Source of the DNA: a phage
Sequence record: PQ400055.1
Reading direction: 5' to 3' (one strand)
DNA: 64,000 bases
In this document: piece after piece, positions 48,104 to 61,471 of the stretch
Position numbering within the stretch: the stretch's first letter is position 1
How the letters are laid out: the number at the start of each line of letters is the position of its first letter
Translations under genes and position numbers: made by a program
Notes under the pieces: generated by a model
Told to the model about the DNA's origin: nothing
What the model saw: only the letters and a program-made list of their open reading frames with translations
Databases searched by the model: none

Positions 48104-48119
48104 ATTACCCCCAACGACA

Positions 48120-48142
48120 AAAGGCGGGAACTAGCCCCGCTT
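48120..48142 (-). terminator. hairpin terminator (minus) after rnlA
   Basis: GCGGGGCTAGTTCCCGC with T-run on minus strand. Confidence 0.5.
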
Positions 48143-48146
48143 ATTA

Positions 48147-49316: not shown

Positions 49317-49713
49317 AATTTGTGTTCCATTCTGGTTTAAATTTGGTGATCAAAACAGGTTCTTCGATATCGGCAGTGCTTATAATATCTTTACCCGTTG
49401 GATTCTCAATATATAACTCAAAGCACTGGCGGTAATAGAATGTTACTGTCTTCCCTTCCTCTAGCGCCTTATGAATATTCTTACTCTTGCGAGTATCCGC
49501 TGTTGGTGTTTGTCTGTTAATGCTAGTCCGGTAATAATTGATCCGCTTTCTGAGATTGACAGTCTGACCAATGTATACCAGTTCATCATCAACCACAATA
49601 GCATAAAGAACATTTAAACGGTTCTTCTGAGGCGGCAGAATCACATCACCATCTTTACACTCTAAACATGAATATTTAACGAATCCATAGTTTTCTATTA
49701 GCTCATTAATCAT
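49252..49713 (-). CDS. denA: endonuclease II (GIY-YIG family)
   Basis: YAIVVDDELVYIGQTVNLRKRINYYRTSINRQ nearly identical to T4 DenA YAIAINDELVYIGKTKNLRKRINYYRTAINRK (from memory); 3' end overlaps rnlA start. Confidence 0.85.
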   Translation of the reverse strand: MINELIENYGFVKYSCLECKDGDVILPPQKNRLNVLYAIVVDDELVYIGQTVNLRKRINYYRTSINRQTPTADTRKSKNIHKALEEGKTVTFYYRQCFELYIENPTGKDIISTADIEEPVLITKFKPEWNTNYVNKRKQQKSFSIVQKSDGTM

Positions 49714-49732
49714 TATCCTTTCCTCACGTCAC

Positions 49733-49756
49733 AACAAAGGCGGGATTTCTCCCGCC
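49733..49756 (-). terminator. hairpin terminator (minus)
   Basis: GGCGGGAGAAATCCCGCC with TTTGTTGT on minus strand. Confidence 0.5.
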
Positions 49757-49763
49757 CACCTTA

Positions 49764-50162
49764 TTAACTTTCCAGAATATCGCGAGCTTCGTTACGCTCC
49801 TTGATGATTTTCAGGACAAATTCCAGTTTTTCTTTGTTCAGCGTTCCATTTTCCATTGCTTCTTTGACGGTAAACACTCCGCCACCTTGCCCGTATACAG
49901 TGACAGTGATTTCACCTAACATCGTGGTATGAAAACCGCCAATTTTCGGTGATTCGAAAGAAACAATTACCTCGCGGACAGTATTACCGTCGTTGATTTC
50001 TGAGAGGGTAATGTCGTTTTTGTAGGCGGTTGCTTTAACCATACGGATCAGCATAGTCTGATCTGGGGAGATGGTCATTTTGTCCATTGCATGTTGCAAT
50101 GCAGCGTAACCGAAAACTTTAACGAAGTCCAGAACGTCTTTGCGAGTTTGAAATTTAATCAT
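49764..50162 (-). CDS. hypothetical early protein
   Basis: 132 aa ORF downstream of a PeSL-like cassette. Confidence 0.5.
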   Translation of the reverse strand: MIKFQTRKDVLDFVKVFGYAALQHAMDKMTISPDQTMLIRMVKATAYKNDITLSEINDGNTVREVIVSFESPKIGGFHTTMLGEITVTVYGQGGGVFTVKEAMENGTLNKEKLEFVLKIIKERNEARDILES

Positions 50163-50232
50163 CTTGATACTCCTTAGTTGTTTTGGTATGGGAGTATCTT
50201 ACTACTCCCGTGATATGCTGTCAACTGCTTTT
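50163..50232 (-). promoter_or_regulatory. PeSL-like early promoter cassette
   Basis: TTGACA, GGGAGTAGTAAGATACTCCC stem, TAAGAT -10, AGGAG RBS on minus strand. Confidence 0.55.
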
Positions 50233-50382
50233 TTATGCAACCGCAAACATCAACATTTGAACATTCTTGGCTGTCTGGCTTTCAAAGTTCTGACATTCTT
50301 TGATAATGTCCTCTACTTTCTCGCCGGAGATCTCCGCGTAAGTTTCGATTGCCATTTTCAGTACCGCGTCAAAGTTGTTCAT
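50233..50382 (-). CDS. small hypothetical protein (49 aa)
   Basis: MNNFDAVLKMAIETYAEISGEKVEDIIKECQNFESQTAKNVQMLMFAVA. Below six-frame track cutoff. Confidence 0.4.
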   Translation of the reverse strand: MNNFDAVLKMAIETYAEISGEKVEDIIKECQNFESQTAKNVQMLMFAVA

Positions 50383-50385
50383 TTG

Positions 50386-50458
50386 ATTCTCCTTAAAGTG
50401 TATTTCGTTTCGATGGGGGTATATTACTACCCCCGTTTCATGCTGTCAACTACTTTTT
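50386..50458 (-). promoter_or_regulatory. PeSL-like early promoter cassette
   Basis: TTGACA, 17 bp with GGGGGTAGTAATATACCCCC stem, TAATAT, AGGAGA on minus strand. Confidence 0.55.
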
Positions 50459-50669
50459 TAATGACAAGTTCGAATTTTGCTACCTTGCGTCCTCGTTTAT
50501 TGAAAGCAACCCACGGACGGTTTTCAATGTAGAACAATTCTTCACCAATAATGAATACTGGCTGATTGTAAAGGCGACCCATCAGGTCACGCTGGCGAAT
50601 GGTAGTAGATTCGTATACTTCGCCCACTACAAAGTGTTTGTTGATAGAGTCGGTGCAAGTAAATTTCAT
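50427..50669 (-). CDS. small hypothetical protein (80 aa)
   Basis: Start placed at MKFTCTDS; six-frame ORF to 50729 is N-extended into the cassette. Confidence 0.45.
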   Translation of the reverse strand: MKFTCTDSINKHFVVGEVYESTTIRQRDLMGRLYNQPVFIIGEELFYIENRPWVAFNKRGRKVAKFELVIKKVVDSMKRG

Positions 50670-50740
50670 TTTGATTCTCCTTTGTTTTCTTGATGGGAGT
50701 ATCTTACTACCCCCGTTATTCAGTGTCAACTACTTTTTAC
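50670..50740 (-). promoter_or_regulatory. PeSL-like early promoter cassette
   Basis: TTGACA..GGGGGTAGTAAGATACTCCC..AGGAGA on minus strand. Confidence 0.55.
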
Positions 50741-50955
50741 TTGTTGTATTCATTCCACCATTGGGCGAGCTTATCAATTATTTTTGTGTTTCTATCCAAC
50801 TTCTCCCACCGTTTTCTAGGGTTTATCAACCGGAATAGGTAAGGTGTACTTGTTAAGTGAACTCGGTCAATGTAGTGATTGATGTACTGCTTTTCGATTC
50901 TAAGTTTCATCTTTTTACGATGAAAATATGCAATGACTTGTTCTTCTGTTTCCAT
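50737..50955 (-). CDS. small hypothetical protein
   Basis: 72 aa ORF. Confidence 0.45.
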   Translation of the reverse strand: METEEQVIAYFHRKKMKLRIEKQYINHYIDRVHLTSTPYLFRLINPRKRWEKLDRNTKIIDKLAQWWNEYNK

Positions 50956-51012
50956 ATGTTCCTCCGTTTCGATGTGCGTATTATGCTATGGCAAGATCAG
51001 ATTGTCAACACC
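50956..51012 (-). promoter_or_regulatory. PeSL-like early promoter cassette (short)
   Basis: TTGACA..17 bp..CATAAT on minus strand, then GGAGG. Confidence 0.55.
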
Positions 51013-51018
51013 CAATAA

Positions 51019-51047
51019 CAAAAAAAGTCGCCACTATGGGCGACTTT
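51019..51047 (-). terminator. rho-independent terminator (minus)
   Basis: AGTCGCCCATAGTGGCGACT hairpin with TTTTTT on minus strand, immediately followed by the next promoter cassette. Confidence 0.65.
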
Positions 51048-51056
51048 GAACAAACA

Positions 51057-51533
51057 TTAATCATGACCGTGATTTGCAATATCCGCTCGCGTCTTATCTT
51101 TGTGATTTCCTACGTCAAAGACACGATAACCATTTTCACGCAAAACTTTAATCACTTCTGGGTTATCCTCAAAGACTCCGACAACTTCATCTTTATCAAA
51201 GGATTTAATTACCTCTAATTTGATGTGATAGTCTTTACGGGAATCGGTACGGCCTCTCATAAAGATTTTATCAAAACACACCCCGTTAGAAATTAACCAA
51301 TCAATTGTTTCCATGTAAGCATGTGAACTTCGTCCGGTGAGGATGTAAATCAAATGCCCGTTGTCGGAAAGAGAATTAATAACACGAATTACATCGTCAA
51401 TGGGGGAATCTCCCCCACATGCCTTGTTATATTCGATCCACGACTCGACTTTATCAAGATTTTCGGTTGGCATCTTTGCTAGTCGATGCGTTGGATCTGT
51501 GATCGTAAAATCTAAATCGACAAAATATATCAT
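51057..51533 (-). CDS. HAD-superfamily phosphatase-like protein
   Basis: N-terminal VDLDFTITD (DxD-like), later YILTGR; 158 aa; sits between nrdB and denA, where T4 has no gene. Confidence 0.4.
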   Translation of the reverse strand: MIYFVDLDFTITDPTHRLAKMPTENLDKVESWIEYNKACGGDSPIDDVIRVINSLSDNGHLIYILTGRSSHAYMETIDWLISNGVCFDKIFMRGRTDSRKDYHIKLEVIKSFDKDEVVGVFEDNPEVIKVLRENGYRVFDVGNHKDKTRADIANHGHD

Positions 51534-52699
51534 AGATATTTCCCGAATCGGTTGTAGTCGTCGTCTGTTAAATCGGTATTAACCTGAGATACCAGATACA
51601 TAATCTCTACTTCCTGCGCTGCATTCTGTACTTCGTCAGAGTTCAACCATTTACGCATCCACGGTAACGGATGACGACGAACACTAAACGGGCTTTTCAG
51701 TCCGGCAGCACGCATACGGGAATCTGCCAGGTATTCTACATAGGTTTTCAGAATTTCCGGTGACAGGTTAGGAATTGCCCCCATTGCGAATAGGTGGTCT
51801 ACCCATTCTTTTTCTTGCTCGACAACATCCAGAAAGATTTTCGTTGCTTCGCCTTCAAGTTCTTCCGCAATCTGTTTCCACTCATCACCATCAACCCCCG
51901 TTTGCCATTGACGAATAATGTATTGTGTGCCTTTTAAGTGAAGTTGTTCATCACGCGCAATAAATTTCATGATCTTCGCGTTACCTTCCAGTAAACCACG
52001 TTCGGCAAAGCTGAAAGTACATGCAAAGGACACATAAAAACGGATTGCCTCCAGTGCATTAACGCAATGCATACACAGATAGAGTGATTCCATCAGATTG
52101 CGTTTAGTTTCTTCCACGTACGAAATGCTATCAGAATATGCATCAAGGTCAAATTCATTTTCAGAAGAACGACTAAAACTTTCTTTAGCGTCCTCGTATT
52201 CACGGATTTTCACCAGAACATCATCATAATATTTCCCGATAGATTCCGCTCGCTTCATGATAGCAGGGTTATCGATGATCTGGTCGAACTCACTAGCCGG
52301 ATCAATGAAACAGTTACGCATAATGTGTGTATAGCTTCGGCTATGAATCGTTTCGCTGAATGTCCATGTTTGCAACCATGTATCGAGAGTTGGATCAGAT
52401 ACAATTGGACCAAATGCTGCGGACGGTGCGCGACCTTGAATAGAATCAAGTAATGTCTGATACTTCAAGTTTTCAGTAAAGAAACGCTTTTCAACGTCAC
52501 CCATATTAAGATATTGAATGCGGTCGGTTGCAAGTGAAATTTCTTCGGGGCGCCAAAAAAATGACAGAGATTTTTCAATTAATTCTTCAAATACTTGATG
52601 ACGCTGAATGTCATAACGAGCGATACCTAAACCGCTGCCCAGAAACATCGGTTCATTCATAATATCAACGTGTTCACGATTAAATACCGTATTTCCCAT
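51530..52699 (-). CDS. nrdB: ribonucleotide reductase small subunit
   Basis: 389 aa (T4 NrdB 388 aa); ferritin-like diiron motifs; uninterrupted ORF (no intron). Confidence 0.88.
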   Translation of the reverse strand: MGNTVFNREHVDIMNEPMFLGSGLGIARYDIQRHQVFEELIEKSLSFFWRPEEISLATDRIQYLNMGDVEKRFFTENLKYQTLLDSIQGRAPSAAFGPIVSDPTLDTWLQTWTFSETIHSRSYTHIMRNCFIDPASEFDQIIDNPAIMKRAESIGKYYDDVLVKIREYEDAKESFSRSSENEFDLDAYSDSISYVEETKRNLMESLYLCMHCVNALEAIRFYVSFACTFSFAERGLLEGNAKIMKFIARDEQLHLKGTQYIIRQWQTGVDGDEWKQIAEELEGEATKIFLDVVEQEKEWVDHLFAMGAIPNLSPEILKTYVEYLADSRMRAAGLKSPFSVRRHPLPWMRKWLNSDEVQNAAQEVEIMYLVSQVNTDLTDDDYNRFGKYL

Positions 52700-53347
52700 T
52701 CACATATTCCTCATTTTACAGTTATCAAAGTGCCATCGTAGAGAATTGCCTTTATTGGTAATTTTACCGCAATGCGGACAAGGATCTGCCATTGTTGCTT
52801 CCTTTGTCCTTTGTGCAATCAGCTTTCTCATTTCCTCACTATGTGGTATTCCTTTAGTTGGCGATGGTTTCCCAAACATAGGATTTTTACTGCCCATTCT
52901 AGCTTTTGAAATGTTTAACGCGTGCTCCTTTGTTTTTGGCTTACGCATTTTAGCTTTTGTCTCTTCTGATTTCAACACACCTTTCGAAGATTCGCTAATC
53001 TTTCTTCGCGTTTCTTCTTTCATAGGTTTGCCCTTTCTTTGTTCAGAGATAAGTACCCTAGCTTGTTCATATACCCTAGACGAAACAATATAATCTCTTT
53101 TATTGGTCTTCGCATTTTTTGCTAAACACATCATACCAAATGCTTGTGCCATAGGTCCACCATGAATTTTTGCTAGCAGATGATGAATCACGAAATGTTC
53201 TTTTGCTGTCAACTCAATCAGGTTATCAACTTCATCACCGCCACCCATAGATCGCGGTAAAATATGATGTGTTTCCTTATACCCTTCAACGGTTCCTCTC
53301 GTCTTTGCTTTTTCTATGATTGCGTCATGTAGTTTTTGTAAGTTCAT
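52700..53347 (-). CDS. HNH homing endonuclease, MobE-like
   Basis: HNH motif THHILPRSMGGGDEVDNLIELTAKEHFVIHH plus NUMOD3-like repeats and C-terminal CxxC; between nrdA and nrdB, as mobE is in T4. Confidence 0.7.
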   Translation of the reverse strand: MNLQKLHDAIIEKAKTRGTVEGYKETHHILPRSMGGGDEVDNLIELTAKEHFVIHHLLAKIHGGPMAQAFGMMCLAKNAKTNKRDYIVSSRVYEQARVLISEQRKGKPMKEETRRKISESSKGVLKSEETKAKMRKPKTKEHALNISKARMGSKNPMFGKPSPTKGIPHSEEMRKLIAQRTKEATMADPCPHCGKITNKGNSLRWHFDNCKMRNM

Positions 53348-53416
53348 GAATTAATCCTCTTTTCTGTATACCATTATTTATCAGGTATCCAGAAGAAGGA
53401 TTAATTCACCTCACTA

Positions 53417-53584
53417 TCACTTTTTAACACAAAAGAACTTAGTATTTCTGTTAACTTCGCTATCCCGCTGCAATTCCTGCACAGCTTCAAAACAATTTTG
53501 ATGTGATGAAAACTCTACGCTGGTAACAGTTCCTTTATTATATACGCCTACGCTAACGGAAAGCAATAACCATATTGTAGCCAT
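53417..53584 (-). CDS. small hydrophobic N-terminus protein (55 aa), tandem paralog 2
   Basis: MATIWLLLSVSVGVYNKGTVTSVEFSSHQNCFEAVQELQRD..; start overlaps upstream stop (TAATG). Below six-frame track cutoff. Confidence 0.45.
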   Translation of the reverse strand: MATIWLLLSVSVGVYNKGTVTSVEFSSHQNCFEAVQELQRDSEVNRNTKFFCVKK

Positions 53585-53757
53585 TAGTTCACCTTCTGCT
53601 TTTCAACACAGTACAGATTCATAAAGCGTTTATTGTCTTCGCGGATAACCTCGCGAGCTTTAACGCAATCCTGCTTTGTTGCAAACTCAATGCTTGACAT
53701 ATTTCCGTAATTATACATTGAATTGCTGATTGCAATCAATAACCATACAGTAGCCAT
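53584..53757 (-). CDS. small hydrophobic N-terminus protein (57 aa), tandem paralog 1
   Basis: MATVWLLIAISNSMYNYGNMSSIEFATKQDCVKAREVIRED..; TAATG overlap with upstream gene. Below six-frame track cutoff. Confidence 0.45.
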   Translation of the reverse strand: MATVWLLIAISNSMYNYGNMSSIEFATKQDCVKAREVIREDNKRFMNLYCVEKQKVN

Positions 53758-53924
53758 TATCCTACAACCTCAAAGCATTTATCATCAGGAAGAATAGCCC
53801 ATTCTACGCCATATTCATCCTCAACGTAGTAGCAAGCCCAATCATGTCGAGCATCATATACATCACCGACAACAAAGCTATCAGCTAGCTCAAAATCTAC
53901 AGCAACACATTTTAATTTGGTCAT
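53757..53924 (-). CDS. small hypothetical protein (55 aa)
   Basis: Start placed at MTKLKCVAVDF; six-frame ORF to 53987 is N-extended into the cassette. Confidence 0.45.
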   Translation of the reverse strand: MTKLKCVAVDFELADSFVVGDVYDARHDWACYYVEDEYGVEWAILPDDKCFEVVG

Positions 53925-53990
53925 AATAAAATCCTCACTTGTTTTTGATGGTTGTATTATAGCGGGGATTTCTCCCCGCGTCAACACTTA
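53925..53990 (-). promoter_or_regulatory. PeSL-like early promoter cassette
   Basis: TTGACGCGGGGAGAAATCCCCGCTATAAT on minus strand, directly after nrdA stop. Confidence 0.6.
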
Positions 53991-53992
53991 TT

Positions 53993-56236
53993 TTACAGCT
54001 TGCAAGATGAGCACTCGCTAGCGTCTTCCGTACCATCTGCACCGTCGCGAACGTTCGCATAATACAGGGTTTTCAGACCGTAATGTTGAGCGAACAACAT
54101 ATCATCTAACACATCAGCAATATCGACTTTACCAGTCTTATAAGTGCTTGGATCGTAGGATGTGTTGGAACTAATCGCCTGATCTACAAACTTCTGCATG
54201 ATCGCTGCCAGTGTCAGATAAGGCTTGTTACCTTTCTTGATCAGTGTCCAAAGCAGGTCAATAACATCAGCATTATTCTCTACGTTCGGAATAACCTGAT
54301 TAAATTGCCCTTCTTTCGATCCTTTAACCGATACAATCCCGCGAGGCGGTTCAATACCGTTTGTGCTGTTAGATACCTGAGAAGATGACTCACAAGGCAT
54401 CAGCGCCGAAAGCGTACTGTTACGAATGCCATATTTTTTCAGGTCTTCGCGCAGTTCTTCCCAATCCATCTCATACACCGGATCAACCAGTTCATCTACT
54501 GTCTTTTTGTACCAGTCGATAGGAAGTTCACCGCGACCATAGCGTGTTTCGTGCATCAGTTCGCAAGCACCCTTCTCTTTAGCCAGTCGCACACTAGCCT
54601 TAATCAGAGCATATTGCAAGCGTTCAAACGTTTTATGCGTAAACTCGTTAGCGTCTTCATATGTGAAGAAATTATCTGCTAGATATGATGCAAAGTTAGT
54701 AACACCAACACCCAGAGAGCGACGTTTTTTGGCTGTCAGAGCTTGTTCTACAGGATAATCCTGATAATCTAACAGGTTGTCAAGTGCACGCACCATAACC
54801 ATAGCAATGCGTTCTACTTCTTCCATATTTTCGATATCGAAATTACCTAAAACATATGCTGCCAAAGTGCATAGGCTGATCTCTGAATCATCACGACCCA
54901 TCGGTTTTGTTGGCAGAGCAATTTCACAACACAGGTTAGATTGTTTAATCGGTGCTACATTACGAATAAACGCCCCGTGATTGTTCATGTTGTCTGTGAA
55001 CGTTGGGTAGATTCGACCAGTGTTAAAACGTTCAATTGCCACCGCTAAAAACAGGTCTTCGGCTTTAACACGAGTTTTACGAACACTCGGATCTTTTTCC
55101 AGTTTTTCGTAAAGCTGGCGGAAACCTTCCTCATCTCGGAAGTATAGATCCCACAACAAGCCACCTGCAACATCTGGACTAAACAGAGTAATGTAATCCC
55201 GTTTAAGGAATCGCTCTACCATCAGGTTATTAATCTGTACGCCGTAGTCAAGATGGCGAATGCGGTTATCTTCCACGCCCTTATTGTTCTTTAACACAAT
55301 CAGACTTTCAAACTCTAAATGCCACATTGGGTAATAGAGAGTCGCCGCCCCGCCACGAATACCGCCTTGTGAGCATGACTTAACGGCAGTCTGAAAATGT
55401 TTCCAGAATGGGATAACGCCAGTATGACGAACTTCACCATACCCGATCTTAGACCCTTCCGCGCGAATCATGCCAGCGTTGATACCGATACCAGCACGCT
55501 TGCTAATATACTTGATGATTGCATTTGCTGTTTCGTTGATGCCCTGCAATGAGTCATCACTTTCAATCACCACACACGAACTAAATTGTCGTGTTGGAGT
55601 ACGCACACCAGCCATAATCGGAGTAGGCAGAGAGATTTGCTTATTCGCAACAGCATTATAAAAATCAATCACATGTTCAAGTCGATTTTCTGTCTCTTCT
55701 TGATGCAAACACATACCGATCAGCATATACGCAAATTGCGGTGTTTCGATGATTTTCTTAGTGCTGCGATCCTGAACAAGATATTTCTCTTTTAACTGCA
55801 TCGCACCAGCATAGGTCATTTTAAAATCAAGTTTATGGTCGATGAATTTCTCCAGATATTCCACTTCTTCACGGGAATATTTTTGCAGAATTTCGCGATC
55901 ATATTTTCCGGTTGCAATATTACGCTCAATATGGCTATAAAAATCAATAGGTTGGAATTGACCGTATACTGATTTACGAAGCGCGAACATTGCAAGGTTA
56001 CTTGCTACATATTGATAATCGGGTGTTTCTACCGTGATGTTATCTGCGGCGACCTTAATCAATACTTTCTGGATATCATTGGTAGACATACCTTCTGTCA
56101 GAAGTGGTTCAACCATATCAAACAATTCATATGGATCAACGTTATGACCTTCGGCTGCCGCTTCCAGAATTTTCATTACTTTTTCTTTTTCAAACGGAAC
56201 AGTCAGACCGGAAGACTTAACAACATTTTTAATCAT
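53993..56236 (-). CDS. nrdA: ribonucleotide reductase large subunit
   Basis: 747 aa (T4 NrdA 754 aa); ATP-cone N-terminus, class I RNR motifs, C-terminal Cys pair; no intein. Confidence 0.9.
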   Translation of the reverse strand: MIKNVVKSSGLTVPFEKEKVMKILEAAAEGHNVDPYELFDMVEPLLTEGMSTNDIQKVLIKVAADNITVETPDYQYVASNLAMFALRKSVYGQFQPIDFYSHIERNIATGKYDREILQKYSREEVEYLEKFIDHKLDFKMTYAGAMQLKEKYLVQDRSTKKIIETPQFAYMLIGMCLHQEETENRLEHVIDFYNAVANKQISLPTPIMAGVRTPTRQFSSCVVIESDDSLQGINETANAIIKYISKRAGIGINAGMIRAEGSKIGYGEVRHTGVIPFWKHFQTAVKSCSQGGIRGGAATLYYPMWHLEFESLIVLKNNKGVEDNRIRHLDYGVQINNLMVERFLKRDYITLFSPDVAGGLLWDLYFRDEEGFRQLYEKLEKDPSVRKTRVKAEDLFLAVAIERFNTGRIYPTFTDNMNNHGAFIRNVAPIKQSNLCCEIALPTKPMGRDDSEISLCTLAAYVLGNFDIENMEEVERIAMVMVRALDNLLDYQDYPVEQALTAKKRRSLGVGVTNFASYLADNFFTYEDANEFTHKTFERLQYALIKASVRLAKEKGACELMHETRYGRGELPIDWYKKTVDELVDPVYEMDWEELREDLKKYGIRNSTLSALMPCESSSQVSNSTNGIEPPRGIVSVKGSKEGQFNQVIPNVENNADVIDLLWTLIKKGNKPYLTLAAIMQKFVDQAISSNTSYDPSTYKTGKVDIADVLDDMLFAQHYGLKTLYYANVRDGADGTEDASECSSCKL

Positions 56237-56282
56237 ATTACCTCACTTCATATTTTAGCAGGAACAAGTTTATCCTCCATAT

Positions 56283-56298
56283 TGGGGGCTTTCGCCCC
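56283..56298. other. GC-rich hairpin GGGGGCTTTCGCCCCC between td and nrdA
   Basis: Perfect 6-bp GC stem; on the coding (minus) strand not followed by a T-run, so possibly an RNA processing or stability element rather than a terminator. Confidence 0.35.
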
Positions 56299-56304
56299 CT
56301 TTGT

Positions 56305-57537
56305 TTATACTGCCATTTGAGCGGTGATCGCTGGATGGCTTTGATAGTTGTGAATTTTAAAGTCTTTCGGAGTCTTTGTCAATACCTCATCTAAAGATTT
56401 AAATTCCGGCAACTCAATTGTTGGTTTATCAAACGGAACACGGCTTAACTGTTCCATGACTTGATCAAAATGGTTTTTGTAAATGTGAGTATCTCCACCA
56501 GAGAAAATCAGTTCTCCTACCTCAAGATCACACATTTTCGCTATGATGTGAGTTAACAGCGCATAGCTGGCGACGTTAAAGGGCAAGCCCAAAAAGCTGT
56601 CTACGCTTCGCTGAAACCACATGCAAGACAATTTACCTTCATTGACATAGAACTGCACGAAAGGATGACATACACCCAATACAGCATTATGTGTTCCTTG
56701 TACGTTCCATGCATCAATAATGATCCGGCGATCCGTTGGATTGTTTTTAATTTGTTCAATCACGTTTTGTAACTGGTCTTCCCAAATCTTCTGGCGATAG
56801 ACATATTCTTCATCGTCTTTAGTGCTCGATGTGTCTACGTCCATACTAGCAAAGATCGTGGTATCTGGTGCTAAAATATCCCCACCCAGATAATCACTAT
56901 CAAGCAGATAACCGAAATAACCATCATCTACCCATTCCTGGAATCCCCACAAGCAATATGCATCATTAACAAAATTAGATTGAGTCTTCCAGTGGTCTGC
57001 TACTAAGAATAGATTATACTCAGAATCAAACTCTTCATAACGCATACCACGCCAGATAGCACATAAACGGTCTTCTGTTTCATTGGTTGGCGTAAAGTCT
57101 TCTACCCACGGGTGCTTAAATGTATGTGCATATTTGCTCTTAACGCGCTTAATTTTGATTTCACCGTGTGGATGAATCGGTTTGCGTCGCCATGCCATAC
57201 CATACATATTGCCGACATTATAACCATTGAATCGCAAAGGATTCTTTTCTTTCATATCAAGACAGTTGCCGCGCCAAATGTCGAAGGCTTCTTCGTCAAA
57301 CTTACCGCGTGTAATTTCCTGTAAGCGACGGCGGTCAAGTGATCCCTCCATAAACCATAGCAATTCGCCAATTACAGAGGCTGTAGCCATCTTTTTAGTG
57401 GTCAGTAATGGGAAACCCTTGCTTAAATCAATTCGCATCTCTGCGCCGAATTTAGATAGCGTACCTACCCCAGTTCGGTCTTCACGAGGCCATCCATTAT
57501 CAAGAACATCACGCAATAGTTTCAAATATTCTTTCAT
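56305..57537 (-). CDS. td: thymidylate synthase with about 120-aa internal insertion
   Basis: Core closely resembles E. coli ThyA (VCHPFVQFYV..KLSCMWFQRS.D.FLGLPFNVASYALL..CDLEVGE..GGDTHIYKNH); 410 aa vs 286 in T4 (from memory); insertion between WRRKP and EDQLQNVIEQI; no intron. Confidence 0.8.
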   Translation of the reverse strand: MKEYLKLLRDVLDNGWPREDRTGVGTLSKFGAEMRIDLSKGFPLLTTKKMATASVIGELLWFMEGSLDRRRLQEITRGKFDEEAFDIWRGNCLDMKEKNPLRFNGYNVGNMYGMAWRRKPIHPHGEIKIKRVKSKYAHTFKHPWVEDFTPTNETEDRLCAIWRGMRYEEFDSEYNLFLVADHWKTQSNFVNDAYCLWGFQEWVDDGYFGYLLDSDYLGGDILAPDTTIFASMDVDTSSTKDDEEYVYRQKIWEDQLQNVIEQIKNNPTDRRIIIDAWNVQGTHNAVLGVCHPFVQFYVNEGKLSCMWFQRSVDSFLGLPFNVASYALLTHIIAKMCDLEVGELIFSGGDTHIYKNHFDQVMEQLSRVPFDKPTIELPEFKSLDEVLTKTPKDFKIHNYQSHPAITAQMAV

Positions 57538-57778
57538 CCCACATCACCTTTTTCTTATTGATTGCTTTCTTACGCAGTTTTGCTACTGTCTCGTCAATAT
57601 CGATAAAGACAACGCCACGGTCGAATATAGTAGCAGGTCTTGATATATCGCTATTTTCTTGCACAGGAAGCCATGATGCGCTCGCTTCATCATAGAGATA
57701 TTGTAAACCGTAATAATCTACGGCTACTGCGTAGTTTTCACTGGTAGCCGTCCATAATTGAATAATACCGACTTTCAT
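57509..57778 (-). CDS. hypothetical protein (89 aa from Met at 57778)
   Basis: MKVGIIQLW.. start forms TAATG overlap with the upstream mini-ORF; six-frame ORF to 57805 is N-extended; 3' end overlaps td start. Confidence 0.45.
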   Translation of the reverse strand: MKVGIIQLWTATSENYAVAVDYYGLQYLYDEASASWLPVQENSDISRPATIFDRGVVFIDIDETVAKLRKKAINKKKVMWDERIFETIA

Positions 57779-57870
57779 TATTGTTCCCGTCCGCAATGTA
57801 AACACCGACTACCAGCAAACATCAAAGATTCACCACAATGTTTGCACTCATAATCTGTCAGAATTTTCAT
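57778..57870 (-). CDS. zinc-ribbon mini-protein (30 aa)
   Basis: MKILTDYECKHCGESLMFAGSRCLHCGREQ; begins 1 nt after frd stop. Below six-frame track cutoff. Confidence 0.35.
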   Translation of the reverse strand: MKILTDYECKHCGESLMFAGSRCLHCGREQ

Positions 57871-57871
57871 G

Positions 57872-58441
57872 TTACGCCTTCTTACGTTCTAAAATTTGTT
57901 CGCTGATCAGGTAATCATCAAGGAAGTAATTATGTTCTTCTTTTGTTGCAAAGTCAAAATATAATTCCTGAATCATTTCCTTAGAGATACCAACATCATA
58001 TTCAAATGGATCGTTGACCCCTGAACGTTGAACATACGTTAACACAATACGGTCCGCAAAGTCAACCGCTTTTTCAATCAGGGAAGGTCCGCCGATAACA
58101 CTTACCAAACCTTGCGTTTTCTCCAGGACTTTTAACAGATCCTTTAATTCAATTCCAGTATACACATTAGGCTGGTCGCCGTTTTTGGCTTTCGGTGTCG
58201 GCTTGCTGGCATCGGTACTAATAACCACATTAAGACGACCTTCCAGTGCTTTAGGCAGACTTTCAAAGGTATTACGTCCCATTACAACCGCCGCAAGATC
58301 AACATCTCCCATAGTGCGCATTTTAAAGTTTTCCATGTCCTTTTTGATTGGACGTCCCCACGGTAAACCGCCTTTAAAACCAAAAGCCCAATTTTCATCT
58401 GACATTTTAGTGTCACCAATCGCAAATACACATTGAATCAT
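57872..58441 (-). CDS. frd: dihydrofolate reductase
   Basis: 189 aa (T4 Frd 193 aa); DHFR-like N-terminus; position upstream of td. Confidence 0.85.
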   Translation of the reverse strand: MIQCVFAIGDTKMSDENWAFGFKGGLPWGRPIKKDMENFKMRTMGDVDLAAVVMGRNTFESLPKALEGRLNVVISTDASKPTPKAKNGDQPNVYTGIELKDLLKVLEKTQGLVSVIGGPSLIEKAVDFADRIVLTYVQRSGVNDPFEYDVGISKEMIQELYFDFATKEEHNYFLDDYLISEQILERKKA

Positions 58442-58456
58442 AATATAAATCTCCCA

Positions 58457-58786
58457 TCAAATCAGTTTGAAATAGTTTTCGTTTACATTTTCTTCTGTGA
58501 TTGCTGTCTTAAATTCTTGACCGTTATCAGGTGTGATGAAATAACGGTCAGAATAATCACGAAAACGTTTTAAGTGAGATACCCCAACATTAACACCATT
58601 TTCCCAAAAACGAAAGGTAATCATTTTTGGTTCATATCGATAGTCGCTGGTTAACACAGTACCATCGCCGCGACGGGCTTCATAAACCGTAATACATTCA
58701 CGGTTAGCGGCTTTAAGGCATTCTTCAATAGTGCCGCACGAGATAATACTTACTTTTTCATCTACGATTTGTTCTACAGTCCACAT
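58457..58786 (-). CDS. hypothetical protein
   Basis: Start placed at MWTVEQIV; six-frame ORF to 58819 is N-extended. Confidence 0.45.
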   Translation of the reverse strand: MWTVEQIVDEKVSIISCGTIEECLKAANRECITVYEARRGDGTVLTSDYRYEPKMITFRFWENGVNVGVSHLKRFRDYSDRYFITPDNGQEFKTAITEENVNENYFKLI

Positions 58787-58852
58787 AATATAATCCTCTC
58801 TTTGTTTCGATATGTGCATTATACACTATTGCGTTACGCTGTCAACTCTTTT
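58787..58852 (-). promoter_or_regulatory. PeSL-like early promoter cassette
   Basis: TTGACA..17 bp..TATAAT on minus strand. Confidence 0.55.
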
Positions 58853-59643
58853 TCAAAAGATTTTACGATATACATTAAATTTCTAATTTCGGACGGTGGG
58901 ATTGTCTCTGTCCACCCGTCCGGCATAACTTTTTGCGATACGTGGTGTGTTTTATTACTAAGTTTTTGTCGAACAATACCCTCTAATTTTAGGGGTATGT
59001 TTCCATCTTTAGTTGTTAGCGTATGGAATATAAAGTGACGAACGGAAGACACGCTGGATTGCTGTTTCATCCTTTCCTCGGCTTTTTTGTTGGTGATTCC
59101 GAACTTATACCCGACAATACAGCCCCAATTATCAACCAGTTTTTGTATATAAAAGGTTCCTGGTTTTCTTTTATCATAACCTCCTTTTTGAGTGGGGCAT
59201 TTCGGACACTGCATATCATCTAAAGATGCGACATATTTGCCATGAACGCAGCAATCCATACTTAGATTCTTTTCTCTTGCATTAATATACCCATTAATAA
59301 ATCCATTGGATTTTACTTTTTCATTATGAGAACAAAATTCATCAATTCGTATATTTGCTGATATAACATTTTTTCTTCTCATTCGTTCCATCCAACATTC
59401 TTGACAACCACCTCCCCCATTTTTAAGTATATCGATAGTGGTTAATTTTTGCTTGTGGTTTGGATTTAATCCACAAGCAATTTTAATTTTAGATCGTACG
59501 CCAGACCACTCATAGAATCCCAAATATATCATATCTCCGCTTTTTATTTTTGGTGAATTTAATGCTTCATTTTCAATCTCAATTGGAGATTTTGAATTAT
59601 AGTAATGGATATATTCTATATCTTTAGCAAATCTGGTGTTCAT
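58834..59643 (-). CDS. Cys-rich hypothetical protein with weak GIY-YIG-like segment
   Basis: Start placed at MNTRFAKD; CQEC and CPKC pairs; GTFYIQKL..VGYKFGITN..R is only a weak GIY-YIG resemblance. Confidence 0.4.
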   Translation of the reverse strand: MNTRFAKDIEYIHYYNSKSPIEIENEALNSPKIKSGDMIYLGFYEWSGVRSKIKIACGLNPNHKQKLTTIDILKNGGGGCQECWMERMRRKNVISANIRIDEFCSHNEKVKSNGFINGYINAREKNLSMDCCVHGKYVASLDDMQCPKCPTQKGGYDKRKPGTFYIQKLVDNWGCIVGYKFGITNKKAEERMKQQSSVSSVRHFIFHTLTTKDGNIPLKLEGIVRQKLSNKTHHVSQKVMPDGWTETIPPSEIRNLMYIVKSFEKELTA

Positions 59644-59705
59644 TTTGTCCTCCGTTGTTTCGATGTGTGTATTATACATTACCACATCAGCATGTCAACA
59701 CCTTT
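59644..59705 (-). promoter_or_regulatory. PeSL-like early promoter cassette
   Basis: TTGACA..17 bp..TATAAT on minus strand, then GGAGGA. Confidence 0.55.
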
Positions 59706-59723
59706 TTCATAAAATTTTAGGCA

Positions 59724-59751
59724 ATAAAAAAGCCTCCCCGAAGGGGAGGCT
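59724..59751 (-). terminator. rho-independent terminator (minus) after gene 32
   Basis: AGCCTCCCCTTCGGGGAGGCT hairpin with T-run on minus strand. Confidence 0.7.
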
Positions 59752-59761
59752 ATAAAATTCA

Positions 59762-60736
59762 TTACATCGCTAACAGAGAGTCAAGATCATCCAGATCAGA
59801 AGCGGAGGAAGTACCGCCACCCAGGTCCAGAGATGCCATCAGGTCATCAGCGGAAGAATCTAACGCCGTGCTAGCTGCGTTAATACCAACTACAGTGCTA
59901 GCTGCGGTCATACCAGAATCGAATGCATTCATCTGTGCGTCAAAATCGTCAAGCTGGCTGTTAATCGCTGCCGCAGCACTGGAAGCCGCAGCACCAGCTA
60001 CCATAGAAACGCCCATAGTTTTCTTAAATTTGGTTTCCAGTTCATCGAACGGTTTAAACTGGCTAGGCGCTACAATCTCACTCAGATCAACCATGTTTTC
60101 CATCAGATATTTCTGATATGCTTCGTCTTCAATTTTCGGAAGCTGTGATTGCTGCATGAAACGAGAATCATCATAGTTCTGGTGTTTATCAACCTTCTTA
60201 GCTTTCAGGAGGAAGTTAGCACCGGAGAACACACAAGTTACATCTACCGGAACTTCGCCCATGTCGGTATTCACGTTCACCATTGCAACGATCTTATCAT
60301 AAATTTTCTGACCGAAGCGGAATTTGAATACCTTACCTTCATTTTCTGGTGCTTGAGGATCTTTCAGTACCAGAATATTTGCGTAGTAAGACGCTTTACG
60401 CTTAATCAGTTGCCATTCGGTTTTATCGGTATTGTACAGGTCTTTTTCGTTAATATATTTGCACACAGGGCAAGAATCAAAATCACCGTGGGTGCTTGAG
60501 CAGTTTTCCCAATACCATTTACCATTAACTTTGAAGGAATGGTTTACCAGTTTCACAATCGGCAGACCGTCTTCTGTCTTAGACGGCAGGAAGCGAATCA
60601 GGGCTTCACCGTTACCTGCTGCATCAGTCTTAATCTTCCACTCTTTCGGATCTTCTTTGGAGAAACCGTTGCCACCTTTCAGTGCGGCCAGTTGAGCTTG
60701 CAGTTTGGAAGAATCTTGGCGTTTAAACATATTCAC
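59762..60736 (-). CDS. 32: single-stranded DNA-binding protein gp32
   Basis: MFKR.., [37 protein letters not shown] match T4 gp32 from memory; acidic C-terminus. Confidence 0.9.
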
Positions 60737-60790
60737 TATTCCTTCTTTTGATTAATTTACTAGACTATTATACAGATTTAAATTTACTTG

Positions 60791-61471
60791 TCAACTATTT
60801 GTTTCGGCTTTTAATTGAGATATTTCTTTACACTCTTTAACTACTTTAACAAATAATGCTCTTGCTTTTGCGGCGTCAATAACAAGTAGTTTCTTGTACG
60901 CCTTCATTTTAACACTATAAGTTTGCCAAATCAAGTCTTTGGCTACCTTGTCGTGTTCGTCGATTATATTTAGAAAGCTATCTAACAACATAAACGACTC
61001 AAACGATATAATCCGATTTTGCAGTAGTTTAAAGATACCGCTAGTTTCGGTTGCGGGATTATATGTAATTAGCTCTTTAAGAGTAACCCCGCGTTTCTCT
61101 GAGAAGTATACAAGACTTTTAATGTCATCGTCAAATCGTGTTGCCGCATCAGTGATTTTACCGATGTACTCCATGTAAAACCCGTATGCGTCAACATCGG
61201 TGATTTCACCTACCCATGCATCGGTATTAGCTACCAGATTGCTTAGGAATAGGAAGTATAATTCTCTTAGATTGTACTTTTCCGCTAATTTTGCGAAATA
61301 ATACTTATCTCTGCGTTTATTGAATGCGGCATCAGACAACCGCATCCTCCAATTGTATTTTACGCAATCATAACGCCCGTTCATATGAGCTTTCATCATG
61401 CAATATAACATATACACAGATTTAGCATTAATTCGCATATCTGGATCTGGAGGAAGACGGTTTCTGATCAT
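60791..61471 (-). CDS. 59: helicase loader gp59
   Basis: KSVYMLYCMMKAHMNGRYDCVKYNW, NLVANTDAW, IFKLLQNRIISFESFMLLDSFLNIIDEHD match T4 gp59 from memory. Confidence 0.9.
   Translation of the reverse strand: MIRNRLPPDPDMRINAKSVYMLYCMMKAHMNGRYDCVKYNWRMRLSDAAFNKRRDKYYFAKLAEKYNLRELYFLFLSNLVANTDAWVGEITDVDAYGFYMEYIGKITDAATRFDDDIKSLVYFSEKRGVTLKELITYNPATETSGIFKLLQNRIISFESFMLLDSFLNIIDEHDKVAKDLIWQTYSVKMKAYKKLLVIDAAKARALFVKVVKECKEISQLKAETNS

What the first reader, a model, noticed from the sequence alone, without database searches (positions are those of the whole stretch)
56305..57537. Thymidylate synthase with a large internal insertion and an E. coli-like core; td and nrdB lack introns
The catalytic core is intact (Cys nucleophile in VCHPF, KLSCMWFQRS, the dUMP-specifying Asn in LPFNVASYALL, GGDTHIY), but about 120 residues (HPHGEIKIKRV .. 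EEYVYRQKIW) are inserted between WRRKP and EDQLQNVIEQI. This is the variable small-domain region, where I recall Lactobacillus casei TS has a shorter insert. The insert is not an intein (no Cys/HN termini). Because the dUMP-specific Asn is kept, the enzyme could be a normal TS or a dUMP-modifying TS homolog.
Basis: partly seen in the sequence, partly recalled or inferred. Interest (0 to 1): 0.45.

Follow-up and report, generated by a model that had tools for sequence, protein, structure and literature searches.

The report
Thymidylate synthase carrying decayed endonuclease-like insert
This RB49-type phage's thymidylate synthase is a normal enzyme carrying a permanently embedded, shrunken copy of a homing-endonuclease-like protein module, and full-length copies of that module sit unspliced at the same spot in the thymidylate synthases of many unrelated phages.

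Summary
The minus-strand ORF 56305..57537 encodes a 410-aa ThyA-type thymidylate synthase. All catalytic residues are present. It has 136 residues where E. coli TS has 10, between W116-R117 and D254-Q255. The window is a Krischvirus (RB49-like), and all 59 database relatives carry the segment.

The insert is not an intein, not an intron and not a mis-join. It does not lie at the L. casei insert site. It is a truncated homologue of a 245-285-aa module that interrupts TS genes at exactly this loop in jumbo coliphages, Klebsiella, Vibrio and Bacillus phages and many metagenomic phages. The same module also occurs as free-standing phage proteins annotated "HNH/homing endonuclease". It has no Pfam model and no PDB structural neighbour.

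Across the family the inserts are sporadic: some TS cores are 92% identical with and without the insert. Insert similarity also disagrees with host-gene similarity, which suggests an in-frame, unspliced mobile element.

The window's copy has lost two subdomains and nearly all family-invariant polar residues (DKD became DSD). It still folds confidently in prediction and is under purifying selection, so I read it as a fixed relic. Nuclease activity of the module is unproven. The absence of td and nrdB introns is confirmed and was already published.

The parts
56305..57537 (-). td gene: ThyA-type thymidylate synthase, 410 aa plus stop codon, one continuous ORF.
   Evidence: ORF list. Pfam PF00303 E 2.3e-85. 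NCBIfam TIGR03284 285.9 bits, above its cut-off. 98.6% nt identity to Krischvirus RB49 td. AF2 model pLDDT 93.2, and Foldseek TM-score 0.93 over the whole of E. coli TS.
57187..57537 (-). N-terminal TS core, residues 1-117. It includes R21, E58, I87-W88 and Y112 and ends at W116-R117.
   Evidence: Aligns to T4 Td residues 1-114 at E 8e-22 and to E. coli TS 1-81. These are invariant columns in the 34-sequence alignment.
56779..57186 (-). In-frame insert, residues 118-253 (136 aa): a degenerate, truncated homing-endonuclease-like module.
   Evidence: tblastn matches the homologous inserts of Escherichia phage UE-S1 TS (E 3e-12), Klebsiella phage phiKp_21 (7e-12) and Vibrio phage D69 (3e-5). The long homologues hit PHROG 2081/953/374 'HNH endonuclease' at E 4e-32, while the window copy alone reaches only E 0.5. 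No Pfam family matches. dN/dS is 0.1-0.5. GC content matches the flanks.
57148..57186 (-). Stalk strand 1, residues 118-130 (RKPIHPHGEIKIK).
   Evidence: AF2 strand E118-130. The PHG..I.RK junction motif is conserved across insert-bearing TS.
56926..57081 (-). Helical core of the module, residues 153-204 (LCAIWRGM .. HWKTQSNF .. LWGFQEWVD). It keeps the structural invariants W162, W183, F189 and D192.
   Evidence: AF2 helices H153-169, H181-193 and H199-204. Column-by-column comparison with long and free-standing members.
56845..56910 (-). Degenerate beta-beta element, residues 210-231 (LDSD .. APDTTIF). It is the counterpart of the family's LDKD .. YSPxTCxF .. N motif. K became S, Y-S became L-A, C became T, and the following helix with the conserved Asn is lost.
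   Evidence: AF2 strands E210-213 and E228-231. In the long-insert model these correspond to E162-164/E179-181 followed by H183-189. Residue table.
56779..56805 (-). Stalk strand 2, residues 245-253 (YVYRQKIWE), which leads back into the TS helix starting at D254-Q255.
   Evidence: AF2 strand E245-254. The junction motif Y.(Y/V)R(P/Q)xI(W/Y) is conserved in all insert-bearing TS, including the most divergent ones, P0024 and P0025.
56305..56778 (-). C-terminal TS core, residues 254-410 plus stop codon. It includes R270-R271, the C290 nucleophile, H291, R310, S311, D313, N321, H351 and Y353.
   Evidence: Aligns to E. coli TS 110-264. These are invariant columns.
57872..58441 (-). frd (dihydrofolate reductase), upstream of td with one small ORF between them. 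It is the metabolic partner expected of a true TS.
   Evidence: ORF list. RB49 annotation of the syntenic region. DHFR-TS adjacency is also seen in other insert-bearing phage contigs.
51530..52699 (-). nrdB, 389 aa, uninterrupted. This is relevant to the 'no introns' part of the finding.
   Evidence: ORF list. No Rfam hit in 48000-61000.

Best explanation
The gene is the Krischvirus td gene and most likely makes an active ThyA-type thymidylate synthase. It works with the phage DHFR encoded upstream, with one small ORF between the two genes.

The 136-residue segment is translated and stays in the mature enzyme. It leaves the TS fold at the surface loop equivalent to E. coli residues 100-109, which I recall is where eukaryotic TS has a short insert. 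It projects on a two-stranded beta stalk and folds into a small helical domain.

The segment descends from a 245-285-aa phage module made of a stalk, an SH3-like beta subdomain, a helical core, a beta-beta-alpha element with an invariant D-K-D...N signature, and a small NUMOD/HTH-like subdomain. That module occurs in two settings. One is free-standing phage proteins annotated as HNH/homing endonucleases. The other is an in-frame, unspliced insertion at exactly this loop of TS in many unrelated phages.

The family-wide pattern fits an element that has moved between TS genes, most simply by homing. If so, the endonuclease-like module would cut insert-free td alleles during co-infection and be copied in by repair. 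That step is inferred, not shown.

In the T4-like lineage of this window the element is fixed and decayed. It has lost the SH3-like and C-terminal subdomains and almost all the family's invariant polar residues. It can hardly keep the ancestral activity.

It is nevertheless kept in frame and under purifying selection. The likely reasons are that the stalk and core are now part of the folded enzyme and cannot be excised cleanly, or that the segment has taken on a secondary role.
For: TS identity:
- Pfam and NCBIfam scores are above the curated cut-offs.
- All catalytic residues are invariant.
- The AF2 model has pLDDT 93.2 and TM-score 0.93 to E. coli TS.
- Synteny is frd-td-nrdA.

The insert is real and not spliced:
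- The ORF is continuous.
- There is no Hint/intein family or motif (and the sequence itself).
- There is no Rfam intron.
- The stalk and domain are predicted with high confidence, pTM 0.91.

Homology to the module:
- tblastn E 3e-12 and 7e-12 to the jumbo-phage TS inserts, 3e-5 to Vibrio phage D69.
- Long inserts hit PHROG 'HNH endonuclease' families at E 4e-32.
- A profile of the long inserts finds 20,119 cluster representatives. Of the top 148, 58 are TS with N- and C-terminal flanks and 79 have no TS.
- BFVD structural neighbours include a 564-aa 'Thymidylate synthase' and proteins named homing endonuclease or I-HmuI-like NUMOD-like.
- Four of the 79 free-standing members carry Pfam I-HmuI_NUMOD-like.

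Mobility of the family:
- P0024 (552 aa) has a core 92% identical to the insert-free P0052, and they sit in syntenic phage contigs.
- The insert is present in Bacillus phage Kioshi TS, whose closest relatives lack it.
- Core and insert identities are poorly correlated (r 0.34). One pair has core 30% and insert 56%; another has core 69% and insert 26%.

Decay in the window:
- R115 became E, K165 became S, Y173-S174 became L-A, and G90 and the N186 helix are absent.
- The structural residues W, W, F, D, T and F are kept.
- Inserts of 127-145 aa are the minority: 8 of 82.

Selection: dN/dS of the insert is 0.16-0.55 within Krischvirus and about 0.10 against P0002, compared with 0.01-0.04 and 0.08 for the core.

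Age:
- GC content equals the flanks.
- The insert is present in all 59 Krischvirus records.
- It is also present in a 169-kb T4-like contig whose Td is only about 52% identical overall.
Against: - No enzymatic or nuclease activity has been tested for any member.
- The family lacks the canonical HNH histidine (D-K-D instead of D-H). No Pfam HNH model matches any of 79 free-standing members.
- Foldseek finds no solved nuclease, or anything else, similar to the module (best E 0.6). A PDB profile search also finds nothing.
- 'Endonuclease' therefore rests on database names and on the association with a NUMOD-like domain. The module could be only a DNA-binding unit.
- The flanks of the insert-plus and insert-minus phages are about 77-87% identical at the DNA level with no clear co-conversion gradient. 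No recent homing event was caught.
- The window insert alone matches the PHROG family only at E 0.5. Its assignment depends on the intermediate TS inserts.
- Purifying selection and a confident fold fit an exapted function as well as they fit a 'stuck relic'.
Confidence: 0.72

Rival explanations
1. The insert is an exapted functional domain, not a passive relic. Having lost nuclease residues, it would now give Td a new property. Examples are docking to other enzymes of the T4-type dNTP-synthesis complex or the replisome, or binding nucleic acid such as its own mRNA.
For: It is fixed in all 59 Krischvirus records and kept in a distant T4-like relative. dN/dS is well below 1. The fold is confident, with a defined position relative to the core (pTM 0.91). 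Two lineages were reduced independently to the same stalk-plus-helical-core unit: the T4-like group, and P0009/P0013 in the jumbo-phage group.
Against: No partner or ligand is known. The polar residues conserved in the parent family are gone and no new conserved polar patch was identified here. Selection on the insert is roughly ten times weaker than on the core within Krischvirus. Structural entrapment alone would also give purifying selection.
Confidence: 0.25
2. The window's insert is still an active, in-frame homing endonuclease that drives inheritance of this td allele in mixed infections.
For: It is homologous to a module annotated as a homing endonuclease. The td/nrd region of T4-like phages is a known hot spot for homing endonuclease genes, and a mobE-like HEG sits 3.4 kb away in this window.
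Against: The copy is half the length of the full module. It lacks the SH3-like and NUMOD/HTH-like subdomains, which are the likely DNA-binding parts. It has lost K165, R115, Y173, S174, C178 and the N186 helix. All known relatives already carry it, so there are no empty target sites within the genus.
Confidence: 0.04
3. The protein is not a thymidylate synthase but a dUMP- or dCMP-modifying homologue (a hydroxymethylase), and the insert is part of that specialisation.
For: TS-family hydroxymethylases exist in phages, and the dUMP-specifying Asn would be kept in a dUMP hydroxymethylase.
Against: It passes the thymidylate synthase equivalog model cut-off. All residues invariant across bona fide TS in the alignment are kept, including Y112 and the C-terminal ..MAV. 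DHFR is encoded immediately upstream. By established TS chemistry, DHFR is needed only if dihydrofolate is produced, that is, for methylation. The RB49 group is reported to lack genes for non-canonical bases and to transduce canonical DNA (PMC8056088). The same insert occurs in TS of many unrelated phages.
Confidence: 0.03
4. The extra residues are an artefact (mis-joined ORFs or a sequencing frameshift), or they are removed as an intein or intron.
For: None beyond the unusual length.
Against: The same 1221-1233-nt ORF is found in 59 independent phage genomes. There are no stop codons. There is no Hint domain, no Cys/Ser at the N-terminal junction and no His-Asn plus Cys/Ser/Thr at the C-terminal junction (sequence). 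There is no Rfam intron. Codon-level purifying selection acts in the td frame. No hidden ORF of significant length lies in other frames of the insert.
Confidence: 0.01

Closest known systems
ThyA-type thymidylate synthases (E. coli ThyA, phage T4 Td, PDB 1tis)
   Same: Same fold (TM-score 0.93), same catalytic residues and the same genomic neighbourhood as T4 (frd-td-nrdA-nrdB). The N-terminal half aligns best to T4 Td.
   Different: There are 136 residues instead of 5-10 in the loop after the conserved W-R. T4 td has a group I intron carrying I-TevI elsewhere in the gene, and this td has none.
Lineage-specific TS inserts: the L. casei / Gram-positive small-domain insert (~50 aa) and the short insert that eukaryotic TS carries in the loop before the DQL helix (recalled from the TS literature)
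   Same: All are surface insertions in the variable region between the folate-binding helix and the DQ.. helix. They are tolerated by the enzyme. The window's site coincides with the eukaryotic insert loop.
   Different: The L. casei insert begins about 30 residues upstream, where the alignment breaks at window residue 88. Neither of those inserts is homologous to a mobile-element protein. The present insert is an independently folding domain with free-standing relatives.
Inteins carrying homing-endonuclease domains (including HNH inteins in phage genes)
   Same: An endonuclease-like module sits in frame inside a conserved nucleotide-metabolism gene. It has a sporadic distribution and follows a degeneration series from full-length to reduced forms.
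   Different: There is no Hint splicing domain and there are no splice-junction residues. The module is predicted to remain in the mature protein on a beta stalk.
ShiLan-type unspliced homing insertion in a mycobacteriophage DNA methylase gene (Arsenault, Gosselin & Gogarten 2025, PMC11855218)
   Same: An insertion that reads through in frame with its host gene, is neither intron nor intein, shows a disjoint distribution, and is predicted to form a hairpin-like excursion away from the host enzyme.
   Different: In ShiLan the HNH endonuclease is encoded in a different reading frame inside the insert. Here the in-frame translation is itself the endonuclease-like module, and no alternative-frame ORF exists. 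The host gene and the module family are both different.
Free-standing and intron-encoded HNH homing endonucleases of phages (I-HmuI type, T4 Mob proteins)
   Same: The parent module's relatives are annotated as such (PHROG 2081/953/374). Some carry the I-HmuI NUMOD-like domain. The central beta-beta-alpha element with Asp and Asn at the positions of the metal ligands resembles the HNH motif by eye.
   Different: The general-base His is Lys in the family and Ser in the window. No Pfam HNH model matches and there is no Foldseek similarity to I-HmuI or any solved nuclease. No member has been characterised.

Membership tests
ThyA-type thymidylate synthase (PF00303 / TIGR03284) | Profile match above the curated cut-off over the whole domain. 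| tested here: met
   PF00303 scores 286.4 bits against a cut-off of 24.3. TIGR03284 scores 285.9 against 108.35. Both match in two stretches flanking the insert.
ThyA-type thymidylate synthase (PF00303 / TIGR03284) | Catalytic and substrate-binding residues (E. coli numbering): R21, E58, W80, Y94, R126/R127, C146, H147, R166, S167, D169, N177, H207, Y209. | tested here: met
   Window residues R21, E58, W88, Y112, R270/R271, C290, H291, R310, S311, D313, N321, H351 and Y353 are invariant or nearly invariant columns. The mapping to E. coli numbers comes from the alignments.
ThyA-type thymidylate synthase (PF00303 / TIGR03284) | TS fold. | tested here: met
   AF2 model pLDDT 93.2. Foldseek to E. 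coli TS 1nce gives E 5e-30 and TM-score 0.93 normalised to the target.
ThyA-type thymidylate synthase (PF00303 / TIGR03284) | Methyl transfer to dUMP with production of dihydrofolate. | not testable with these tools
   Indirect support only: DHFR is encoded just upstream of td, and the RB49 group is reported to have canonical DNA.
Intein | Hint splicing domain; Cys/Ser/Ala at the N-terminal junction; His-Asn followed by Cys/Ser/Thr at the C-terminal junction. | tested here: not met
   No Pfam family matches the insert at E <= 10. The junctions read WR|RKPIHPHG and YRQKIWE|DQL.
Group I intron in td, as in T4 | Non-coding ribozyme interrupting the reading frame. | tested here: not met
   The ORF is continuous. 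Rfam gathering search of 48000-61000 gives 0 hits.
HNH (beta-beta-alpha-metal) homing endonuclease | Sequence membership in a recognised HNH family. | tested here: inconclusive
   Long TS inserts hit PHROG 2081/953/374 'HNH endonuclease' (E 4e-32 to 8e-21), but the window insert reaches only E 0.5. No Pfam HNH model matches the window insert, the long inserts or 79 free-standing relatives.
HNH (beta-beta-alpha-metal) homing endonuclease | Catalytic His (general base) with Asp/Asn/His metal ligands on a beta-beta-alpha element. | tested here: not met
   The family has an invariant D-K-D ... N on a predicted beta-beta-alpha element. The window has D-S-D and has lost the helix carrying the Asn.
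HNH (beta-beta-alpha-metal) homing endonuclease | Structural similarity to solved HNH nucleases. | tested here: not met
   Foldseek of the pLDDT-96 long-insert model against the PDB gives a best E of 0.6, with only SH3/Tudor-like noise. hmmsearch of PDB sequences finds nothing at E <= 10.
HNH (beta-beta-alpha-metal) homing endonuclease | Site-specific DNA cleavage and super-Mendelian inheritance. | not testable with these tools
   Needs biochemistry and phage crosses.
Mobile in-frame (unspliced) insertion element, ShiLan-like | Reads through in frame with the host gene and has no splicing apparatus. | tested here: met
   All 82 insert-bearing TS in hand are continuous proteins with both TS halves.
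Mobile in-frame (unspliced) insertion element, ShiLan-like | Disjoint distribution among close relatives, and a history incongruent with the host gene. | tested here: met
   This holds for the family, not for the window's own lineage. P0024 (insert present) and P0052 (insert absent) have cores 92% identical. Their contigs are syntenic. Core and insert identity correlate at r 0.34 with strong outliers. Within Krischvirus the insert is fixed in 59 of 59 records.
Mobile in-frame (unspliced) insertion element, ShiLan-like | Endonuclease encoded in an alternative reading frame of the insert. | tested here: not met
   The largest other-frame ORFs over the window insert are 41 aa on the td strand and 70 aa on the opposite strand (138 aa at its upstream edge). 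Over the UE-S1 insert they are 79 and 53 aa on the opposite strand. The in-frame product is the homologue of the free-standing proteins.
dCMP/dUMP hydroxymethylase (TS superfamily) | Asp instead of Asn177 (dCMP enzymes); no need for DHFR; modified bases in the DNA. | tested here: not met
   N321 is kept. DHFR is encoded just upstream. The TS equivalog cut-off is passed. The literature reports that the RB49 group lacks enzymes for non-canonical bases. A dUMP hydroxymethylase cannot be formally excluded from sequence alone.

The most novel reading that the evidence does not exclude
Thymidylate synthase genes of many unrelated phages host a family of self-mobilising endonuclease-like elements that live in frame and are never spliced out, in effect 'inteins without splicing'. 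These elements are tolerated because they project from one permissive surface loop on a beta stalk. Their core has a fold with no solved relative and a D-K-D...N variant of the beta-beta-alpha nuclease site. Under this reading the Krischvirus insert is the end-stage, domesticated relic of that life cycle.
Probability: 0.4. Interest if true: 0.8.

Novelty: new variant of a known kind. Interest (0 to 1): 0.58.

Why it matters
For this window alone the result is modest. It explains why a long-annotated phage enzyme is 45% longer than its relatives, and it predicts that the enzyme works with a foreign domain permanently embedded.

The wider pattern matters more. Homing endonuclease genes are thought to survive inside essential genes only by hiding in self-splicing introns or inteins, or by sitting between genes. 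Here an endonuclease-like module appears to persist in frame, unspliced, inside an essential nucleotide-metabolism enzyme. This holds across at least 82 sequence clusters of phage TS. The series runs from full-length to reduced forms, and there are signs of transfer between host genes.

A single related case, with an out-of-frame HNH in a methylase gene, was described only in 2025. If the module is a nuclease, this would be a third way for homing elements to live in coding sequence. It would also be a large, uncharacterised and structurally new nuclease family: about 20,000 cluster representatives, no Pfam model and no PDB neighbour.

It also marks a loop of TS that accepts 130-290-residue domains, which is useful for protein engineering.

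Tried and rejected
- Word-indexed protein search with the 131-aa insert alone found nothing. This was a limit of the index, since tblastn and the full-length query worked.
- Pfam and NCBIfam on the window insert, the long inserts and the free-standing relatives gave no family except four I-HmuI_NUMOD-like hits.
- A profile search of PDB sequences with inserts plus free-standing proteins gave no hit at E <= 10.
- Foldseek of the long-insert model against the PDB gave nothing significant. My by-eye alignment of LDKD..N to the I-HmuI HNH motif therefore stays a lead only.
- The intein, intron and mis-joined-ORF readings were rejected.
- A hidden out-of-frame endonuclease ORF, as in ShiLan, was looked for and not found.
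- A recent-homing signature (higher DNA identity next to the insertion site) was sought between insert-plus and insert-minus syntenic contigs. Identity is 77-87% throughout and uninformative.
- Megablast with the Bacillus phage Kioshi td, looking for near-identical insert-free alleles, returned only Kioshi itself.
- Foreign base composition of the insert was checked, and GC content is the same as in the flanks.
- Four full-text searches, plus targeted reading of about nine papers, found no description of this TS insert. Desplats et al. 2002 on RB49 is not held.
Full report
**What is at the coordinates.** The interval 56305..57537 is one continuous ORF on the minus strand and encodes 410 residues. 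The nucleotide sequence is 98.6% identical to the td gene of Krischvirus RB49. It matches 59 phage records, all RB49-like coliphages or Shigella phages, over its full length. The neighbourhood is the classical T4-type nucleotide-metabolism cluster: gene 32, an endonuclease ORF, frd (57872..58441), a small ORF, td, nrdA (53993..56236), a homing-endonuclease ORF, and nrdB (51530..52699).

**The protein is a thymidylate synthase.**
- Pfam Thymidylat_synt matches at E 2.3e-85.
- NCBI's equivalog model TIGR03284 is passed, with 285.9 bits against a cut-off of 108.35.
- PDB thymidylate synthases align to residues 1-82 and 254-410.
- Every residue known to be needed for catalysis is present and falls in an invariant alignment column: R21, E58, W88, Y112, R270/R271, C290, H291, R310, S311, D313, N321, H351, Y353.
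- An AlphaFold2 model built on 34 homologues has mean pLDDT 93.2 and pTM 0.91. It superposes on E. coli TS with a TM-score of 0.93 over the whole target.

**The insertion itself.** Between W116-R117 (E. coli W98-R99) and D254-Q255 (E. coli D110-Q111) the protein has 136 residues where E. coli has ten. Its comparison with L. casei is not:
- The L. casei chains stop aligning at window residue 88 and resume at residue 254 (= chain 162). Their extra ~50 residues therefore begin about 30 residues upstream of this site.
- The site used here is the loop just before the DQL helix. I recall that eukaryotic TS carries a short insert there.
- The core is not particularly E. coli-like. The N-terminal 117 residues align best, and from end to end, with phage T4 Td.

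**What the insert is not.**
- It is not an intein. No Hint or other Pfam family matches, and the junction residues are wrong.
- It is not an intron. The frame is continuous, and Rfam finds nothing in 48000-61000.
- It is not an assembly artefact. It appears in 59 independent genomes.
- It does not hide an ORF in another frame.
- The 'no introns in td and nrdB' part of the finding is correct. It was already reported for RB49 (PMC1524935).

**What the insert is.** A tblastn search with the insert alone recovered all Krischvirus td genes. It also hit the middle of much longer 'thymidylate synthase' genes:
- Escherichia jumbo phage UE-S1 (517 aa, E 3e-12)
- Klebsiella phage phiKp_21 (7e-12)
- a Vibrio phage D69 gene annotated 'HNH endonuclease' that is in fact a TS with the same interruption (3e-5)
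- weaker hits to free-standing 'HNH endonuclease' or 'DNA binding protein' genes

A search with the whole protein returned 25 further insert-bearing TS of 401-613 aa. In the alignment all of them are interrupted at the same point. The junctions are conserved..WR..P..PHG..I.RK at the start and ..Y.VRP.I(Y/W).DQL at the end.

The long inserts (about 245 aa) match PHROG families 2081, 953 and 374, all named 'HNH endonuclease', at E 4e-32 to 8e-21. The window's short version reaches only E 0.5.

A profile of 14 long inserts, searched against 1.84 billion cluster representatives, found 20,119 proteins at E <= 1e-3. Of the best 148:
- 58 have TS sequence on both sides of the module
- 11 have TS sequence on one side
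- 79 have no TS; most of these are 170-300-aa free-standing proteins, and some are larger proteins with two copies

**Structure of the module.** The P0012 insert was modelled with 86 homologues (pLDDT 96, pTM 0.90). The model shows:
- a two-stranded stalk
- an SH3-like beta subdomain
- a four- to five-helix core carrying the W..M..R(C)Y and W..F.NF..D motifs
- a beta-beta-alpha element carrying the invariant L-D-K-D, YS..TC.F and N
- a small C-terminal beta-beta-alpha unit

Foldseek finds no solved structure like it (best E 0.6). A PDB sequence-profile search finds nothing. Pfam and NCBIfam have no model for it, apart from four of the 79 free-standing members that carry the I-HmuI NUMOD-like domain. 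In the BFVD library of predicted viral structures it has 51 neighbours at E <= 1e-3. The best is another 564-aa 'thymidylate synthase'. Most of the rest are uncharacterised, and a few are named homing endonuclease.

The label 'endonuclease' thus rests on database names, on the NUMOD association and on a motif that looks like an HNH site with Lys in place of His. It is a hypothesis, not a result.

**Evidence that the family has been mobile.**
- Of 177 TS sequences in hand, 82 carry an insert of at least 100 residues. Eight are 127-145 residues long, six are 150-200 and 68 are longer than 200, up to 382.
- P0024 (552 aa) has a core 92% identical to insert-free P0052, and 92%/83% identical in its two halves to insert-free P0029. 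The three lie in syntenic phage contigs, ordered DHFR-TS ... methyltransferase-terminase.
- Bacillus phage Kioshi has a 548-aa TS with the module, while the closest TS in the phage collection lack it.
- Across 2,464 pairs of insert-bearing proteins, core and insert identities correlate only weakly (r 0.34). At one extreme a pair has core 30% and insert 56%. At the other a pair has core 69% and insert 26%.

This is what one expects if inserts move between TS genes. I did not catch a recent event. DNA flanking the insertion site in insert-plus and insert-minus relatives is 77-87% identical, with no informative gradient.

**State of the window's copy.** A residue-by-residue comparison gives the following picture:
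- The Krischvirus insert keeps the stalk and the structural invariants of the helical core (W162, W183, F189, D192, T227, F229).
- It lacks the SH3-like subdomain, the helix after the beta-beta element and the C-terminal subdomain.
- The family-invariant polar residues are replaced: R became E, D-K-D became D-S-D, Y-S became L-A, C became T, and the Asn is gone.
- The same kind of reduction happened independently in the jumbo-phage lineage. P0009 and P0013 have cores 72% identical to the long-insert P0010-12.

The segment is nevertheless not decaying freely. Nei-Gojobori dN/dS is 0.16-0.55 within Krischvirus and about 0.10 against an 87%-identical relative. The corresponding values for the core are 0.01-0.04 and 0.08. 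GC content matches the flanks. A short insert is also present in a 169-kb T4-like contig whose Td is only about 52% identical overall. The insertion is therefore old in this lineage.

**Most likely mechanism.**
- Shown: the gene encodes a TS-fold protein with a complete active site and an embedded, confidently folding extra domain. The domain is homologous to a widespread phage module found both inside TS genes and on its own.
- Inferred: the enzyme is active with the domain in place. The ancestral module entered td as an in-frame mobile element, probably a homing endonuclease that cuts insert-free alleles at the codons it now separates. In the RB49 lineage it became fixed, lost its activity and two subdomains, and is retained because the stalk and core are integrated into the folded protein, or because it has acquired a secondary use.
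- The closest published parallel is the unspliced 'ShiLan' insertion in a mycobacteriophage methylase gene. There the HNH enzyme is encoded out of frame (PMC11855218). Here the in-frame product is itself the endonuclease-like protein.

**Assessment.** The finding as written (a long Td, no introns) describes an annotated gene of a well-known phage genus, and in that sense it is ordinary. The origin of the insert, and the existence of a large family of TS genes carrying full-length versions, is not described in any paper I could find. I rate it a new variant of a known kind: homing-element-derived insertions in phage genes. Interest is moderate to fairly high. The main uncertainty is whether the module is a nuclease at all.

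Noticed in passing
window 52700..53347 (-): A 215-aa free-standing HNH + NUMOD3 homing endonuclease (PHROG 655 'homing endonuclease', E 1.8e-55). Its stop codon abuts the nrdB start codon. The RB49 reference genome has three small hypothetical ORFs at this position instead. This is a mobE-like presence/absence polymorphism between nrdA and nrdB.
   Followed up: partly
window 58834..59685 (-): A 283-aa ORF with a GTG start that matches only positions 251-540 of the 576-position PHROG 681 'endonuclease'. The gene at the same place is 485 aa in RB49, and 405 or 340 aa (CapR/DUF4379) in two metagenomic relatives. It looks like a variable or truncated endonuclease gene between gene 32 and frd.
   Followed up: partly
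L011 (phage JSE td), nt ~720-1080 of the gene: JSE td is 94-100% identical to the window over the N-terminal core and the insert. It drops to 61-83% in a patch that starts at the 3' boundary of the insert and covers the catalytic region. This is a mosaic recombination tract abutting the insert junction.
   Followed up: partly
L004 1910..3343 (Vibrio phage D69): A gene annotated 'HNH endonuclease' is in fact a 477-aa TS homologue carrying the module. Its TS part is divergent (for example ..LKDAHTY, FYNIWSY), so it may not be a standard TS.
   Followed up: no
P0143 (264 aa) and P0122 (288 aa): P0143 looks like a complete TS-type insert, with stalk-like ends (..VLYRP..), standing alone as an ORF. 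P0122 is a TS N-terminal half plus module that ends abruptly. They are either contig-end fragments or split td genes. Their context was not examined.
   Followed up: no
module family as a whole: A phage protein module with about 20,000 cluster representatives at E <= 1e-3. Its invariant motifs are GVGY.G, W..M..RCY, W..F.NF..D and LDKD..YS..TC.F..N. It has no Pfam or NCBIfam model and no PDB structural neighbour. Some proteins carry two copies (P0124, P0137).
   Followed up: partly
window 57509..57805 (-): A small conserved ORF (PHROG 16012, function unknown) overlaps the td start codon by 29 nt. In RB49 the annotated 89-aa version overlaps td in the same way, which suggests translational coupling into td.
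   Followed up: no
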